A DNA stretch of 64,000 bases from Verrucomicrobiota bacterium (GTDB lineage: Bacteria > Verrucomicrobiota > Verrucomicrobiia > Verrucomicrobiales > Verrucomicrobiaceae): NCBI GenBank assembly GCA_025360015.1, contig JANYCZ010000049.1, forward strand, positions 41,793-105,792, written 5' to 3'. Positions 35,293-37,686 of this stretch are shown piece by piece. Made by a program: the position numbers and the translations under genes. A model generated the notes under the pieces. It saw nothing but the letters and a program-made list of their open reading frames with translations. It was not told the DNA's origin and made no database searches. The first letter of the stretch is position 1; every line of letters begins with the position of its first letter.

Positions 35293-35375
35293 AGAAAGGG
35301 GTGCCTGAATCCACTCATTCAAGATAGGAGATATGCCAATTGACAGCGCCGCATCTCCACGGGCAAACTGCGCCG

Positions 35376-35897
35376 ATGAATGACTCCTCCCCGACGATCC
35401 TGTGTCTCCTTCAACGCTGGCGGACATGGGTCGGGAGTGTGGGCGTCCTGCTGCTGGTGACCTCCTGCGCTGCTCCCATCATCGGCAATGACGGGCTCTC
35501 CGGCACCGCCAAGCCCAATGTGCACGGCATTTACCAGGGCTCCTACACCTATGGCGCCGCCTATCAGAAGCTGGCCGGGCAGTCGGTCACCTTTGAGATC
35601 TCCCTGCGTCAGATGCGCGGCTCCAACAAGATCTCCGGCGTCATCAAGGACACCTACACCGGCTCCGGCACGTTAACGGACGGCTTTGTGTGGTCGGACA
35701 TCCACGGCACTTGCGAGAGTGAGAACGGCTTCACCCACCTGAAATTCCGCAAAACCTACCGGCACTCCAAGGACCCGGCGGCGATCTATCAGGGCTCCCT
35801 CCCCCCGGGTTCGAGCCTGCTCTCGGGCACCTGGTACCTGGAATCGAAAACGAGTGACAGCGGCATGTTTCAGATCAGCAACATCCATGTGCAATGA
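35376..35897 (+). CDS. Hypothetical lipoprotein
   Basis: LLLVTSC lipobox; beta-rich body; ATGA overlap with the pcp-like gene. Confidence 0.7.
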   Translation: MNDSSPTILCLLQRWRTWVGSVGVLLLVTSCAAPIIGNDGLSGTAKPNVHGIYQGSYTYGAAYQKLAGQSVTFEISLRQMRGSNKISGVIKDTYTGSGTLTDGFVWSDIHGTCESENGFTHLKFRKTYRHSKDPAAIYQGSLPPGSSLLSGTWYLESKTSDSGMFQISNIHVQ

Positions 35898-36631
35898 ACT
35901 CCACCACACCTGCTCTTGTCCTGCTCACGGCATTCAGCCTGGCAGGTTCCATCCTGCCTGCGCAAACCGCCCCCGCCGCGCCGCCGCCTGACATTGTGGT
36001 GAGTGGCTTTGAAGCCTTCGGCGGTCGTTCCGAAAACGCCTCCTGGGTTCTGGCGGAAGAAATCGCCAAGGCGTTTCCCAAGGAAGTGCGCGCCGTGCAA
36101 GTGCCCGTGGTCTGGGGCGCGCCGCAGACCGCCATCGACGGCACCAAACCGCTGCCGCAGGTGTGGATCGCCTTTGGTGAAGGCACCTCGGAGCTTCAAA
36201 TCGAAACTCTCGCCCACAACGTGCGCGGCCGGTATCCGGACAATCATGGCACCAAACCCGCCACGCCCGACATCGTCAAAGACTCTGCGGCGGAGCTGCA
36301 TCAGACGGCGAAAGTGGAAGGCCTGGCCGAGGCGCTGACGCAGGCGGGATTTCCCACGCACGTCTCCCAGAACGCCGGGCGCTACATCTGCGAGGAGATG
36401 CTGTACTCCCTGCTGCATGCGCAGAAGCAGCACCCCGATGCGCTGCGGCTGGTGCTCTTCATTCACGTCCCGCCCCTCACGCCTGCTGTCAAGGGAACCG
36501 CAGCAAAAGGCGGAGCCACCGCCACCAAGCCCAAGGTGGACGCCGCATGGTTGCAGGCCTTTGGCAGGCAGCTCTTCACCTCCCTGCGCCAGCAGGGCCT
36601 GCTGGCGGAAGCATCGGATCGCAAGCGATAG
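35894..36631 (+). CDS. pcp: Pyroglutamyl-peptidase I family protein with signal peptide
   Basis: VSGFEAFGGRSENAS, IETLAHN, SQNAGRYICE, FIHVP. Confidence 0.85.
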   Translation: MNSTTPALVLLTAFSLAGSILPAQTAPAAPPPDIVVSGFEAFGGRSENASWVLAEEIAKAFPKEVRAVQVPVVWGAPQTAIDGTKPLPQVWIAFGEGTSELQIETLAHNVRGRYPDNHGTKPATPDIVKDSAAELHQTAKVEGLAEALTQAGFPTHVSQNAGRYICEEMLYSLLHAQKQHPDALRLVLFIHVPPLTPAVKGTAAKGGATATKPKVDAAWLQAFGRQLFTSLRQQGLLAEASDRKR

Positions 36632-36666: not shown

Positions 36667-37140
36667 TTAGTGGTGATGACCGCCGCCACCATGACTCACA
36701 TGCCCGCCACCCCCGTGACTGACATGGCCACCCCCATGAAACACCGGGCCGCTGCTGTGACCAAAGCTGCCCCCATGGCCTGCATGCCCGAAGCTGCCCA
36801 CATGACCGTGATACGGATTCACATAGGTTGGCCGCACATACGTGGGCCGATAGTTATAACTGCGGTAGCCGTTCCCGCCGTAGCCGTAGCTCCCGTAACC
36901 GTAGCCGCCGTAGTGAGGCCGTACATACACCGAACTGGTGGGCTGCGTGACCCACTGGTAAATGGGATAGCCCATGGCGTCATAACCTACGATCTGGTAC
37001 ACGGCATACACCGGCGCACCATTGGTCAGGTAATTCACGATCTGGCGCTGACCGGGAAACGGTAGCGGCATCGCGTTCGCCGATGGAGCTGCGAGGCCTA
37101 ACACAGTGACCACAGCAAGGAGGCTTAGAAGTGTTTTCAT
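36667..37140 (-). CDS. Secreted Gly/His/Tyr-rich low-complexity protein
   Basis: MKTLLSLLAVVTVLG...ANA signal, IVGYDAMGYPIYQWVT, HVSHGGG repeats. Confidence 0.8.
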   Translation of the reverse strand: MKTLLSLLAVVTVLGLAAPSANAMPLPFPGQRQIVNYLTNGAPVYAVYQIVGYDAMGYPIYQWVTQPTSSVYVRPHYGGYGYGSYGYGGNGYRSYNYRPTYVRPTYVNPYHGHVGSFGHAGHGGSFGHSSGPVFHGGGHVSHGGGGHVSHGGGGHHH

Positions 37141-37200
37141 AAGGTTGGTGGAGAGTTGCTCCACAGGGTTAAACGACGGCCAGCTCGGCTTATTCAATTC
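37141..37200 (-). promoter_or_regulatory. Conserved upstream element, copy 1
   Basis: TTGAAT...GTCGT...GTGGAGCAACTCTCC...ATG aligns without gaps to 37551-37610. Confidence 0.6.
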
Positions 37201-37301
37201 AGCGAGGTCAAGTAAACGCTGCCTGCGGGCAGTGGCACTTGCTTTGGCAGTTCAGCAAACGTGCCGCCGCCCAAGCCCACCGCCCGGCAGGTCTTTCCCG
37301 C

Positions 37302-37550
37302 TTAATGTTTGTACCAGCCCCTGTGGAGCCCATGATCATGCCCAAAGTGGCCATGGTTCCAGTGGCCGGGAGGTCCATAGGGCCGCCCATACACGGGGCC
37401 TGCGGGGACCGTTACCCATTGATAAATGGGAAATCCCATGGGGTTGTACCCCACGATACGGCGCTCGTGGAGAAACCGGTGAGCGGCATTTGCGGGGACT
37501 GCGATGCCAAACACGGTGACCGCAGCGAGAATGCTGAGAAGTGTTTTCAT
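37302..37550 (-). CDS. Secreted Gly/His-rich peptide, paralog of 36667..37140
   Basis: MKTLLSILAAVTVFG...ANA signal, IVGYNPMGFPIYQWVT. Confidence 0.8.
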   Translation of the reverse strand: MKTLLSILAAVTVFGIAVPANAAHRFLHERRIVGYNPMGFPIYQWVTVPAGPVYGRPYGPPGHWNHGHFGHDHGLHRGWYKH

Positions 37551-37610
37551 AGAGTTAGGGGAGTGTTGCTCCACCTTCTTTGACGACTTCTCGCCATGCT
37601 CATTCAAATT
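37551..37610 (-). promoter_or_regulatory. Conserved upstream element, copy 2
   Basis: TTGAAT...GTCGT...GTGGAGCAACACTCC...ATG with the same spacings as copy 1. Confidence 0.6.
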
Positions 37611-37686
37611 CAGCTGAGCACGGCTGTGCCATTGGGCTCCTTCTCGGCCATCGACAAAATCCGCACGCTGCGCATGCTCCGCCTTC

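What the first reader, a model, noticed from the sequence alone, without database searches (positions are those of the whole stretch)
36667..37610. Tandem secreted Gly/His/Tyr-rich peptides with a duplicated promoter-leader module
Seen: both genes have MKTLLS...ANA signals, a shared core IVGY(D/N)xMG(Y/F)PIYQWVT and divergent His/Gly-rich tails. Their upstream 60 bp align without gaps: TTGAAT-N14-GTCGT-N32-ATG, including GTGGAGCAACwCTCC. Inference: an alternative (ECF-like) sigma promoter drives a family of small exported metal-binding, amyloid-like or matrix peptides. I recognise no family for them, which makes this the best candidate for an undescribed system.
Basis: partly seen in the sequence, partly recalled or inferred. 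Interest (0 to 1): 0.62.

Follow-up and report, generated by a model that had tools for sequence, protein, structure and literature searches.

The report
Stress-sigma regulon of small exported proteins
Two neighbouring genes of a Prosthecobacter-like bacterium encode small exported proteins (a tiny beta-sheet core plus a floppy glycine/tyrosine/histidine-rich tail), and each sits behind an envelope-stress-type (RpoE-like ECF sigma) promoter that also fronts the sigma gene itself and several glycine/tyrosine/histidine-rich lipoprotein genes across the whole bacterial family; what the proteins do is still untested.

Summary
Two minus-strand genes (157 aa, 36667-37140; 82 aa, 37302-37550) have Sec-type signal peptides, a shared IVGYxxMGxPIYQWVT core and divergent His/Gly/Tyr tails. 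Their 65 upstream bases align without gaps (39/65; 0 of 20,000 shuffles reach this).

The duplication is old and kept by selection. The protein family occurs in 129 of 145 genomes of the same GTDB family and in none of 300 other genomes of the phylum.

All 29 orthologous or paralogous loci carry TGAAT(A/G)-N15/16-CGT(C/T). The boxes are 94% identical and the spacers 44%.

By the Rhodius definition this is the E. coli sigma-E layout (GGAACTT-N16-TCAAA).

The promoter followed by an MK(T/S) start occurs about 190 times in 86 of 145 family genomes, against 2 for a reversed control. All 30 genes examined downstream look exported, many of them Gly/Tyr/His-rich lipoproteins.

A single-copy RpoE-like ECF sigma with an adjacent anti-sigma carries the same motif in 30 of 30 orthologous loci. 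It is the likely cognate sigma.

AlphaFold gives a confident three-stranded beta meander and a disordered tail. No Pfam, NCBIfam or PDB relative was found.

No transcript data were available. Metal binding or a matrix role remains inference.

The parts
36667..37140 (-). Gene A, 157-aa exported protein. Signal peptide residues 1-23 (37072-37140). Two-hairpin beta core residues 31-66 (36943-37050). Disordered Gly/Tyr then Gly/His tail residues 67-157, ending HGGGGHHH.
   Evidence: Translation. Orthologues P0013 and the L006 151-aa and L009 119-aa proteins. AlphaFold: pLDDT block means 89-93 for residues 31-60 (81 for 61-70), strands 32-37, 43-53, 59-65; tail pLDDT about 40. Composition G20 Y11 H9 %.
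37148..37164 (-). Gene A leader hairpin GTGGAG-CAACT-CTCCAC, at the predicted 5' end of the mRNA (predicted start about 37162-37164).
   Evidence: MFE -7.7 kcal/mol, z -2.8. Helix kept in 46 leaders: 75.7% paired against 33-51% for slid controls; covariation score 0.170 against 0.118, reached by 0/500 shuffles.
37169..37196 (-). Gene A promoter: -35 TGAATA (37191-37196), 15-nt spacer, -10 CGTTTAA (37169-37175).
   Evidence: Same boxes in 29/29 related loci. Sigma-E-type geometry (PMC1312014).
37209..37291 (-). Long GC-rich hairpin between the two genes, ending CTGCC-CGCA-GGCAG + CGTTTACTT. Terminator-like, so gene B and gene A are probably separate transcription units.
   Evidence: Terminator-like site at 37232-37219. 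The intergenic region folds at -50.6 kcal/mol, z -2.7.
37302..37550 (-). Gene B, 82-aa exported protein. Signal peptide residues 1-22 (37485-37550). Single hairpin core residues 31-47 (37410-37460). Conserved His-rich tail PPGHWNHGHFGHDHGLHRGWYKH.
   Evidence: Translation. Orthologues P0003-P0009 at 54-89% identity keep the tail motif GHDxGLH(K/R)GW(Y/F)KH.
37558..37575 (-). Gene B leader hairpin GG(T)GGAG-CAACA-CTCC(C)C, at the predicted 5' end of the mRNA (predicted start about 37572-37574).
   Evidence: MFE -8.3 kcal/mol. Helix statistics.
37579..37606 (-). Gene B promoter: -35 TGAATG (37601-37606), 15-nt spacer, -10 CGTCAAA (37579-37585). Counted as in Rhodius et al. this is a 7-mer, then N16, then TCAAA.
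   Evidence: E. coli sigma-E -10 is (T/C)GGTCAAAA with a preferred 16-nt spacer (PMC1312014).

Best explanation
The two genes are independent transcription units of a regulon driven by a conserved RpoE-like ECF sigma factor. That sigma is encoded elsewhere in the genome (contig C39:2559-3167, minus strand), with an anti-sigma gene immediately downstream.

When the sigma is released, presumably by an envelope signal, it reads TGAAT(A/G)-N15/16-CGTC promoters. Transcription would start 5-6 nt after the -10, directly at a short stem-loop that probably protects the 5' end of a roughly 24-nt leader with no Shine-Dalgarno sequence.

The products are exported through Sec and cleaved after ANA. Each consists of a very small beta-hairpin module (three strands in A, one hairpin in B), too small to be a stand-alone globular domain. 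It is therefore likely to be a docking or oligomerisation piece. It carries an intrinsically disordered Gly/Tyr/His tail.

Gene A's tail shares its design with lipoproteins of the same regulon (YGYGGYG..., RPxY..., GGGGHxSH repeats, terminal HHH). I therefore read the set as stress-induced envelope proteins whose His-rich tails bind divalent metal ions and/or knit an envelope matrix.

Shown here by comparative sequence evidence: the genes are real, the proteins look exported, the promoter is conserved, the regulon exists, and the sigma gene carries the same motif.

Inferred only: the start site, induction by stress, the role of the hairpin, and metal binding or a matrix function.
For: Genes are real.
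- The family is found in 129/145 genomes and 13/15 genera of the GTDB family.
- A library-wide profile search gives 184 hits, mostly 80-130 aa.
- AlphaFold predicts a confident beta core.

Promoter.
- 27/29 related loci match GAAT[AG]-N15-CGT, and the other two have N16.
- The boxes are 94% identical against 44% for the spacers.
- The geometry equals E. coli sigma-E: GGAACTT-N16-TCAAA, -10 GGTCAAAA, A/T-rich UP element (PMC1312014). The conserved central AA of the -35 is as in group IV sigmas (PMC1540707).

Regulon.
- In the window's own genome the motif also precedes the third paralogue and five Gly/Tyr-rich lipoprotein genes, one of which was not in the training set. It also precedes a LolA_like gene.
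- The pattern TGAATA-N15/16-CGTY-N6-36-ATGAARWC hits 86/145 family genomes, up to 7 per genome, against 2 reversed-control hits in total.
- All 30 downstream genes examined begin with signal-peptide-like N-termini.

Sigma.
- The RpoE-like ECF (best NCBIfam match TIGR02939, 158.9 bits) has an adjacent anti-sigma.
- It is single-copy in 60/61 genomes and 15/15 genera.
- TGAAT(A/T/G)-N16-CGTC lies about 22 nt upstream of the ATG in 30/30 orthologous loci, with unrelated spacers.

Hairpin.
Against:
- The sigma's own promoter has a spacer one base longer (N16) than most targets (N15). In this genome its -35 is TGAATT, so my first matrix scan missed it.
- Another of the 28 ECF sigmas could share this specificity.
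- RNAalifold predicted no consensus hairpin. One stem position is mostly unpaired. A symmetric DNA operator would give similar covariation.
- The matrix scan was partly trained on own-genome sites, and the composite pattern preselects MK(T/S) starts.
- His content (9-11%) is suggestive only. No known metal-handling gene was found among the regulon members examined, and no canonical sigma-E targets (protease, BAM) appeared among the top hits.
Confidence: 0.7

Rival explanations
1. The shared upstream module is only the neutral remnant of a recent tandem duplication and has no regulatory meaning.
For: The two genes are adjacent and also share 50/69 bases in the signal-peptide coding part. The same tandem pair is seen in only one other genome examined (L006).
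Against: Both gene types have separate orthologues in other species. The boxes are kept while the spacers diverge to 44% identity. The same motif precedes unrelated genes and the sigma gene in many genera.
Confidence: 0.02
2. The conserved boxes are binding sites of a classical transcription factor working with the housekeeping sigma. Alternatively, the leader inverted repeat is a repressor operator rather than an RNA hairpin.
For: The inverted repeat GTGGAG-N5-CTCCAC lies at about +1 to +17, a typical operator position. Symmetric changes in both arms fit a co-evolving dimeric repressor as well as an RNA stem. Cys-type loci have an extra A/T palindrome GAAAAATATTTTC just upstream of the -35.
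Against: No sigma-70-like -35/-10 is present in the region (0 sites). The two boxes are not repeats of each other. Their sequence and spacing fit group IV sigma promoters. The same boxes precede an ECF sigma gene in 30/30 loci. G-U pairs occur in the stem (6 at one pair, 3 at another), which favours RNA. Regulon members without the hairpin still have the boxes.
Confidence: 0.08
3. The promoter is ECF-type, but the proteins are periplasmic metal buffers or chaperones of a metal-stress response (in the manner of CnrH, CorE or SigAb), not general envelope-stress or structural proteins.
For: His-rich tails are conserved as a theme: GHDHGLHRGWYKH in B-type orthologues, (G)GGGHVSH repeats and terminal HHH in A-type proteins and in the lipoproteins. 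Other regulon members end in polyHis or are Cys/His-rich (L039, L044, L060, L063). ECF sigmas that respond to copper are documented (PMC3107203; PMC12153292).
Against: No efflux pump, P-type ATPase or multicopper oxidase carried the motif among the own-genome top hits. The sigma is closest to RpoE/SigW and has no CorE-like Cys-rich extension. The anti-sigma's periplasmic part shows no metal-ligand motif. Gly/Tyr-rich segments and a LolA_like target point to the envelope more broadly.
Confidence: 0.3
4. The proteins are secreted antimicrobial or bacteriocin-like Gly/His-rich peptides.
For: They are small, exported and Gly/His-rich, and copy number varies between genomes.
Against: They have an ordinary Sec signal, not a double-glycine leader. 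No immunity, modification or dedicated export genes lie nearby: the neighbours are a C15 peptidase-like and an MGMT-like gene in conserved synteny. One conserved copy in nearly every genome of the family is not the pattern expected of bacteriocins.
Confidence: 0.03

Closest known systems
E. coli RpoE (sigma-E) envelope-stress regulon and its promoters (Rhodius et al. 2006, PMC1312014; Lane & Darst 2006, PMC1540707)
   Same: Two-box promoter with a central AA in the -35, a -10 of (C)GTCAAA type, a 16-nt spacer by the same counting, and an A/T-rich stretch upstream in some members. The sigma gene is followed by an anti-sigma gene and carries its own promoter motif. Targets encode exported envelope proteins, including a LolA-like protein.
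   Different: The -35 is TGAATA rather than GGAACTT. The sigma scores below the RpoE equivalog cut-off (158.9 against 236 bits). The predicted targets are dominated by small low-complexity Gly/Tyr/His-rich proteins and lipoproteins, not proteases, chaperones or BAM/LPT components. No start-site or induction data exist.
RHS/YD beta-hairpin repeats (Pfam PF05593)
   Same: The motif xVGYDxxGxPI resembles YDxxGRL hairpin units. Multi-repeat proteins found with the family profile score weakly on PF05593 (P0089 22.5 bits, P0110 30.3 bits). Another regulon member (L041) is a genuine small RHS-repeat protein.
   Different: The window proteins do not match PF05593 at E<=1. Profile comparison with an RHS-repeat protein gives 0.9% probability. 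There are only one or two hairpins, with no shell-forming array and no toxin domain.
His-rich metal-binding proteins such as Helicobacter pylori Hpn/Hpn-like and periplasmic ZraP (from general knowledge, not tested)
   Same: Small size and clustered His/Gly residues that could chelate Ni, Zn or Cu.
   Different: There is no sequence relationship. These proteins are Sec-exported, carry a beta-hairpin core and Tyr/Gly-rich segments, and are under an ECF promoter.
ECF-driven exported disordered His/Tyr-rich proteins noted earlier in this scan (e1-1320464 Omnitrophota, e1-755602, e1-1430070); AI notes, not independent evidence
   Same: The theme is the same: a stress-type sigma promoter in front of small Sec-exported, Tyr/His-rich, largely disordered proteins, sometimes with glycine-zipper lipoproteins.
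   Different: Different phyla and unrelated sequences. Here the regulon is dispersed over the genome, not a single operon, and a candidate sigma is identified through its own promoter.

Membership tests
Group IV (ECF, sigma-E-type) promoter | -35 with a conserved AA core (GGAAC/TGAAC type) and a -10 of CGT/GTC type, about 16-17 nt apart | tested here: met
   TGAAT(A/G)-N15-CGT(C/T)nnA. Counted as in PMC1312014 this is a 7-mer, then N16, then TCAAA for gene B.
Group IV (ECF, sigma-E-type) promoter | Boxes conserved in position across orthologues while spacer and flanks drift | tested here: met
   29/29 loci. Boxes 94% identical against 44% for spacers.
Group IV (ECF, sigma-E-type) promoter | The same motif stands in front of the cognate sigma gene (autoregulation) | tested here: met
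   The RpoE-like ECF at C39 has TGAAT(A/T/G)-N16-CGTC about 22 nt before the ATG in 30/30 orthologous loci. The spacer is one base longer than in most targets.
Group IV (ECF, sigma-E-type) promoter | Transcription starts 5-6 nt after the -10 and depends on the sigma | not testable with these tools
This needs 5' RACE or dRNA-seq and a sigma or anti-sigma mutant.
Sec-exported protein (signal peptidase I substrate) | Basic N-terminus, hydrophobic core, AxA cleavage motif, no lipobox Cys | tested here: met
   MK + TLLSLLAVVTVLGLAAPS + ANA|M in A, and ...VPANA|A in B. This is conserved in all family members. It was judged by eye; no predictor was available.
RHS/YD repeat (PF05593) | Significant match to the family HMM | tested here: not met
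   No hit at E<=1 for either protein. hhalign against an RHS-repeat protein gives 0.9% probability.
Curli-type functional amyloid | CsgA-like repeat domain and dedicated csgG/E/F-type secretion genes | tested here: not met
   No Pfam match. The neighbours are a C15 peptidase-like and an MGMT-like gene. Amyloid formation itself was not testable.
His-rich metal-binding proteins (functional class) | Measured binding of Ni, Zn or Cu | not testable with these tools
   Only composition (His 9-11%) and the conserved motif GHDxGLH(K/R)GW(Y/F)KH are known.

The most novel reading that the evidence does not exclude
The core RpoE-like sigma of this verrucomicrobial family may be devoted largely to exporting a battery of intrinsically disordered Gly/Tyr/His-rich proteins. 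These include the beta-hairpin-anchored ones in this window and lipoproteins with FUS-like Q/G/Y/S or GGGGHxSH repeats. They would assemble through His-metal bridges and Tyr contacts into an inducible gel or coat in the periplasm or on the outer surface. That would be a bacterial counterpart of metal-hardened His/Gly-rich structural proteins, and an envelope-repair strategy distinct from the protease/chaperone/BAM response of Proteobacteria.
Probability: 0.15. Interest if true: 0.8.

Novelty: new variant of a known kind. Interest (0 to 1): 0.55.

Why it matters
Almost nothing is known about transcription signals or stress regulons in Verrucomicrobiota.

This finding gives a precise promoter motif that can be tested. 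It also gives a candidate cognate sigma/anti-sigma pair and a first predicted regulon.

That regulon consists mainly of an undescribed family of very small beta-hairpin proteins and low-complexity Gly/Tyr/His-rich lipoproteins, not the textbook sigma-E targets. If confirmed, the envelope-stress response in this lineage uses a different set of effector proteins. It would also provide a defined set of exported disordered proteins for work on metal handling or envelope material properties.

A sparser set of the same promoter in front of small Tyr/Pro/Trp-rich exported proteins elsewhere in the phylum suggests the sigma and its theme are older than this family.

Tried and rejected
- Rfam: only a sub-threshold chance hit.
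- RNAalifold on 46 leaders: no consensus structure. I therefore tested a manually defined helix instead.
- Pfam, NCBIfam and PDB sequence searches on the two proteins: no hits.
- Foldseek against PDB: nothing below E 0.7.
- RHS-repeat membership: rejected.
- First attempt to find an autoregulated sigma with a matrix scan of 30 Sigma70_r2 loci: failed. The own-genome site is TGAATT with N16.
- The ECF at C52 (GGAATA-N15-CGTA, with a FecR-like anti-sigma and a DUF1549-type neighbour): considered and set aside as a paralogue with its own specificity.
- CorE-like Cys-rich sigma: none found.
- A regulator between the clustered lipoprotein genes on C21: none, only unrelated enzymes and a TonB-dependent receptor.
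- Earlier scan notes on this place: nothing.

Full report
**What is there**

On the minus strand lie two short genes.
- Gene A (36667-37140) encodes 157 aa.
- Gene B (37302-37550) encodes 82 aa.

Both proteins begin MKTLLS..., have a hydrophobic stretch and end the signal with ANA. Neither has a lipobox cysteine.

They share the core IVGY(D/N)xMG(Y/F)PIYQWVT and then diverge.
- A continues with a Tyr/Gly-rich stretch, RPxY motifs, and then GHxGSFGH...HGGGHVSHGGGGHVSHGGGGHHH.
- B ends PPGHWNHGHFGHDHGLHRGWYKH.

The 65 bases before each ATG align without gaps at 39/65. None of 20,000 shuffles exceeds 30 matches. The next 135 bases match at 25%, which is random.

**The proteins are a real, lineage-restricted family**

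Neither protein matches Pfam, NCBIfam or any PDB sequence. Homologues are named only 'hypothetical protein [Prosthecobacter sp.]', which also suggests the organism.

A third paralogue lies on another contig.

A profile of the family finds a match in 129 of 145 genomes and 13 of 15 genera of the same GTDB family, usually one copy per genome. It finds none in 300 other genomes spread over the phylum. A library-wide profile search gives 184 hits, mostly proteins of 80-130 aa.

There are two subtypes.
- The Cys-less type, as in the window. Gene A-like and gene B-like tails each have their own orthologues.
- A more widespread Cys-containing type, ending RSGISFSFGFGR or HHHGFRR.

The Cys-less genes sit in conserved synteny between a C15 pyroglutamyl-peptidase-like gene and an MGMT-like gene. 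The tandem pair recurs in one other genome, G085. The duplication is therefore old, and both copies have been kept.

**Fold**

The core is an internal repeat (QIVNYLTNGAPVYAVYQ / QIVGYDAMGYPIYQWVT). Gene B and its closest relatives have lost the first unit.

AlphaFold2 with a 30-sequence alignment gives the following.
- pLDDT block means of 89-93 for residues 31-60 and 81 for residues 61-70.
- A three-stranded antiparallel meander (strands 32-37, 43-53, 59-65).
- pLDDT of about 40 for residues 72-157.

The protein is thus a tiny beta module with a disordered tail. Foldseek finds nothing similar in the PDB.

The motif resembles RHS/YD hairpins. The profile also picks up multi-repeat proteins, including an LPXTG protein and a 6650-aa eukaryote-like protein with 33 copies of VVGYDxxGxPI. 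Membership in PF05593 nevertheless fails.

**The upstream module is a conserved ECF-type promoter**

I chose related loci only by protein similarity. Of these, 27 of 29 carry GAAT[AG]-N15-CGT at a fixed distance from the ATG, and the other two have N16.

The consensus is cTGAATAg-N15-CGTC-nn-A. The boxes are 94% identical between loci and the spacers 44%.

Counted as in Rhodius et al. (GGAACTT to TCAAA), gene B reads TGAATGA-N16-TCAAA. That matches the preferred spacing of E. coli sigma-E, whose -10 is (T/C)GGTCAAAA (PMC1312014). The central AA of the -35 is the feature common to group IV sigmas (PMC1540707).

No sigma-70-like promoter is present in the region. Cys-type loci add an A/T-rich palindrome just upstream of the -35, where sigma-E promoters have UP-like sequence.

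**It defines a regulon**

A regular expression derived only from the family found the motif in the window's own genome before four Gly/Tyr-rich lipoprotein genes. A matrix scan added three more:
- a fifth lipoprotein that was not in the training set (a FUS-like Q/G/Y/S protein with a glycine zipper);
- a LolA_like gene;
- an 876-aa lipoprotein.

The lipoproteins share gene A's tail design: YGYGGYG..., RPxY, GGGGHSF or GGGFGGGG repeats, and a terminal HHH.

I then searched the 145 family genomes with the composite pattern TGAATA-N15/16-CGTY-N6-36-ATGAARWC. It occurs about 190 times in 86 genomes, up to 7 per genome, against 2 hits for the reversed control.

All 30 downstream genes inspected begin with signal-peptide-like N-termini. 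They comprise:
- YD-type proteins;
- Gly/Tyr/His lipoproteins with polyHis ends;
- Cys/His-rich peptides;
- DUF6600 proteins;
- small RHS-repeat proteins.

Elsewhere in the phylum the pattern is sparser but still above control: 35 of about 299 genomes against 7 control hits. There it precedes small Tyr/Pro/Trp-rich exported proteins and an apparently LpoB-like lipoprotein, judged by eye.

**Candidate sigma**

The genome has 30 Sigma70_r2 matches. My first scan found no convincing autoregulated sigma.

A closer look at an RpoE-like ECF on contig C39 (203 aa) changed that. Its best NCBIfam match is TIGR02939 RpoE at 158.9 bits, below the 236-bit cut-off. It is followed by a single-pass anti-sigma with a weak zf-HC2 match. 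About 21 nt before its ATG lies CTGAATT-N16-CGTC.

The orthologue is single-copy in 60 of 61 genomes and all 15 genera. All 30 orthologous loci fetched carry TGAAT(A/T/G)-N16-CGTC at the same place, with unrelated spacers.

Autoregulation is a hallmark of ECF sigmas (PMC12153292). This is the likely cognate sigma; I put that at about 0.7.

**Leader hairpin**

Immediately after the predicted start both window genes have GTGGAG-CAACn-CTCC(A/C)C, with MFE of -7.7 and -8.3 kcal/mol.

Other lineages have GGAA/TTCC, GGAT/ATCC or GAAC/GTTC stems at the same place, with A/C-rich loops.

On a MAFFT alignment of 46 leaders I tested a manually defined 6-bp helix.
- It is paired in 75.7% of cells, against 33-51% when the partner columns are slid.
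- Five of six pairs show double changes.
- The covariation score is 0.170 against 0.118, reached by 0/500 shuffles.

RNAalifold itself called nothing, so support is moderate.

A 5'-terminal stem-loop that stabilises the mRNA is the simplest reading; this rests on general knowledge of 5'-end-dependent decay. A DNA operator is the rival, and the G-U pairs argue weakly against it.

A strong hairpin with a T-run separates gene B from gene A's promoter. The two genes are therefore probably separate units.

**What remains open**

No expression or start-site data could be obtained. The inducing signal and the biochemical role are inferred from composition and from the company the genes keep.

Metal binding by the His-rich tails and a matrix or coat role of the Gly/Tyr segments are both plausible. 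They do not exclude each other.

Earlier notes of this scan describe similar ECF-fronted exported His/Tyr-rich disordered proteins in other phyla. I treat them as leads only. They do suggest the theme is wider than this family.

**Verdict**

It also extends well beyond the window: the genes belong to a family-wide, RpoE-like ECF regulon whose predicted targets are mainly small exported low-complexity proteins. That makes it a new variant of a known kind of system. The protein family is undescribed, and the experiments needed to test it are concrete.

Noticed in passing
Own genome contig C37:38063-38700, about 3.7 kb left of the window start (outside the window): A 200-aa lipoprotein gene (MKTKLILL...LSSC, Gly 31%, Tyr 11%, His 8%). 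It has five GGGGHSF repeats and a terminal GGGHHH, behind the same TGAATA-N15-CGTC promoter and a very short leader.
   Followed up: partly
window 35894-36631 (+): A pyroglutamyl-peptidase (Peptidase_C15) homologue with what looks like an N-terminal signal peptide, convergent with gene A. Its adjacency to the Cys-less genes is conserved in three other genomes. An exported C15 peptidase is unusual. Any link to the small proteins is unknown.
   Followed up: partly
window 35340-35897 (+): A 185-aa ORF with no Pfam match, conserved (63-69% identity) next to the locus in related genomes.
   Followed up: no
Loci L014, L016, L019-L024, L028-L035, L047, L056-L059; proteins P0060, P0150: A C-terminal motif, RSG(I/V/L)SFSFGFGR and variants (SGFSITFTR, SGFYFSFGR, SSGFYFGIGR), ends several otherwise different exported proteins of the regulon. 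It may be a sorting or anchoring signal.
   Followed up: no
Own genome C17, minus strand (promoter TCGAATAG-N-CGTCAGA), 176-aa lipoprotein: A lipoprotein with a glycine-zipper segment followed by a FUS-like low-complexity tail (QQGYAQQGYGQQGYGQGYGQGYSQQ...). The matrix scan found it although it was not in the training set.
   Followed up: partly
Loci L002, L010-L035 (Cys-type genes), just upstream of the -35: A conserved A/T palindrome GAAAAA(A)TATTTTC lies directly after the stop codon of an oligopeptide ABC permease gene and abuts the -35. It could be an UP-like element or a regulator site. It is absent from the window genes.
   Followed up: no
Proteins P0016 (6650 aa) and P0086 (507 aa) from the profile search: The hairpin unit (I/V)(V/I)GY(D/E)xxGxPI(I/V/Y) occurs 33 times in a giant Q/N-rich eukaryote-like protein, and many times in an LPXTG-anchored protein (IVGYENGEPIYGEA). 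No Pfam family covers it.
   Followed up: partly
Own genome C39, directly downstream of the anti-sigma gene: A 167-aa exported or lipoprotein-like ORF (MKIVLPALFLISCTALACAQ...) with no Pfam or NCBIfam match, in the sigma/anti-sigma operon position where RseB-like partners sit in Proteobacteria.
   Followed up: no
window 37197-37205 and 37607-37614 (-): Both promoters have a second, overlapping CTGAAT immediately upstream of the TGAAT(A/G) box (GCTGAATTGAATA / GCTGAATTTGAATG). Whether this matters is unknown.
   Followed up: no
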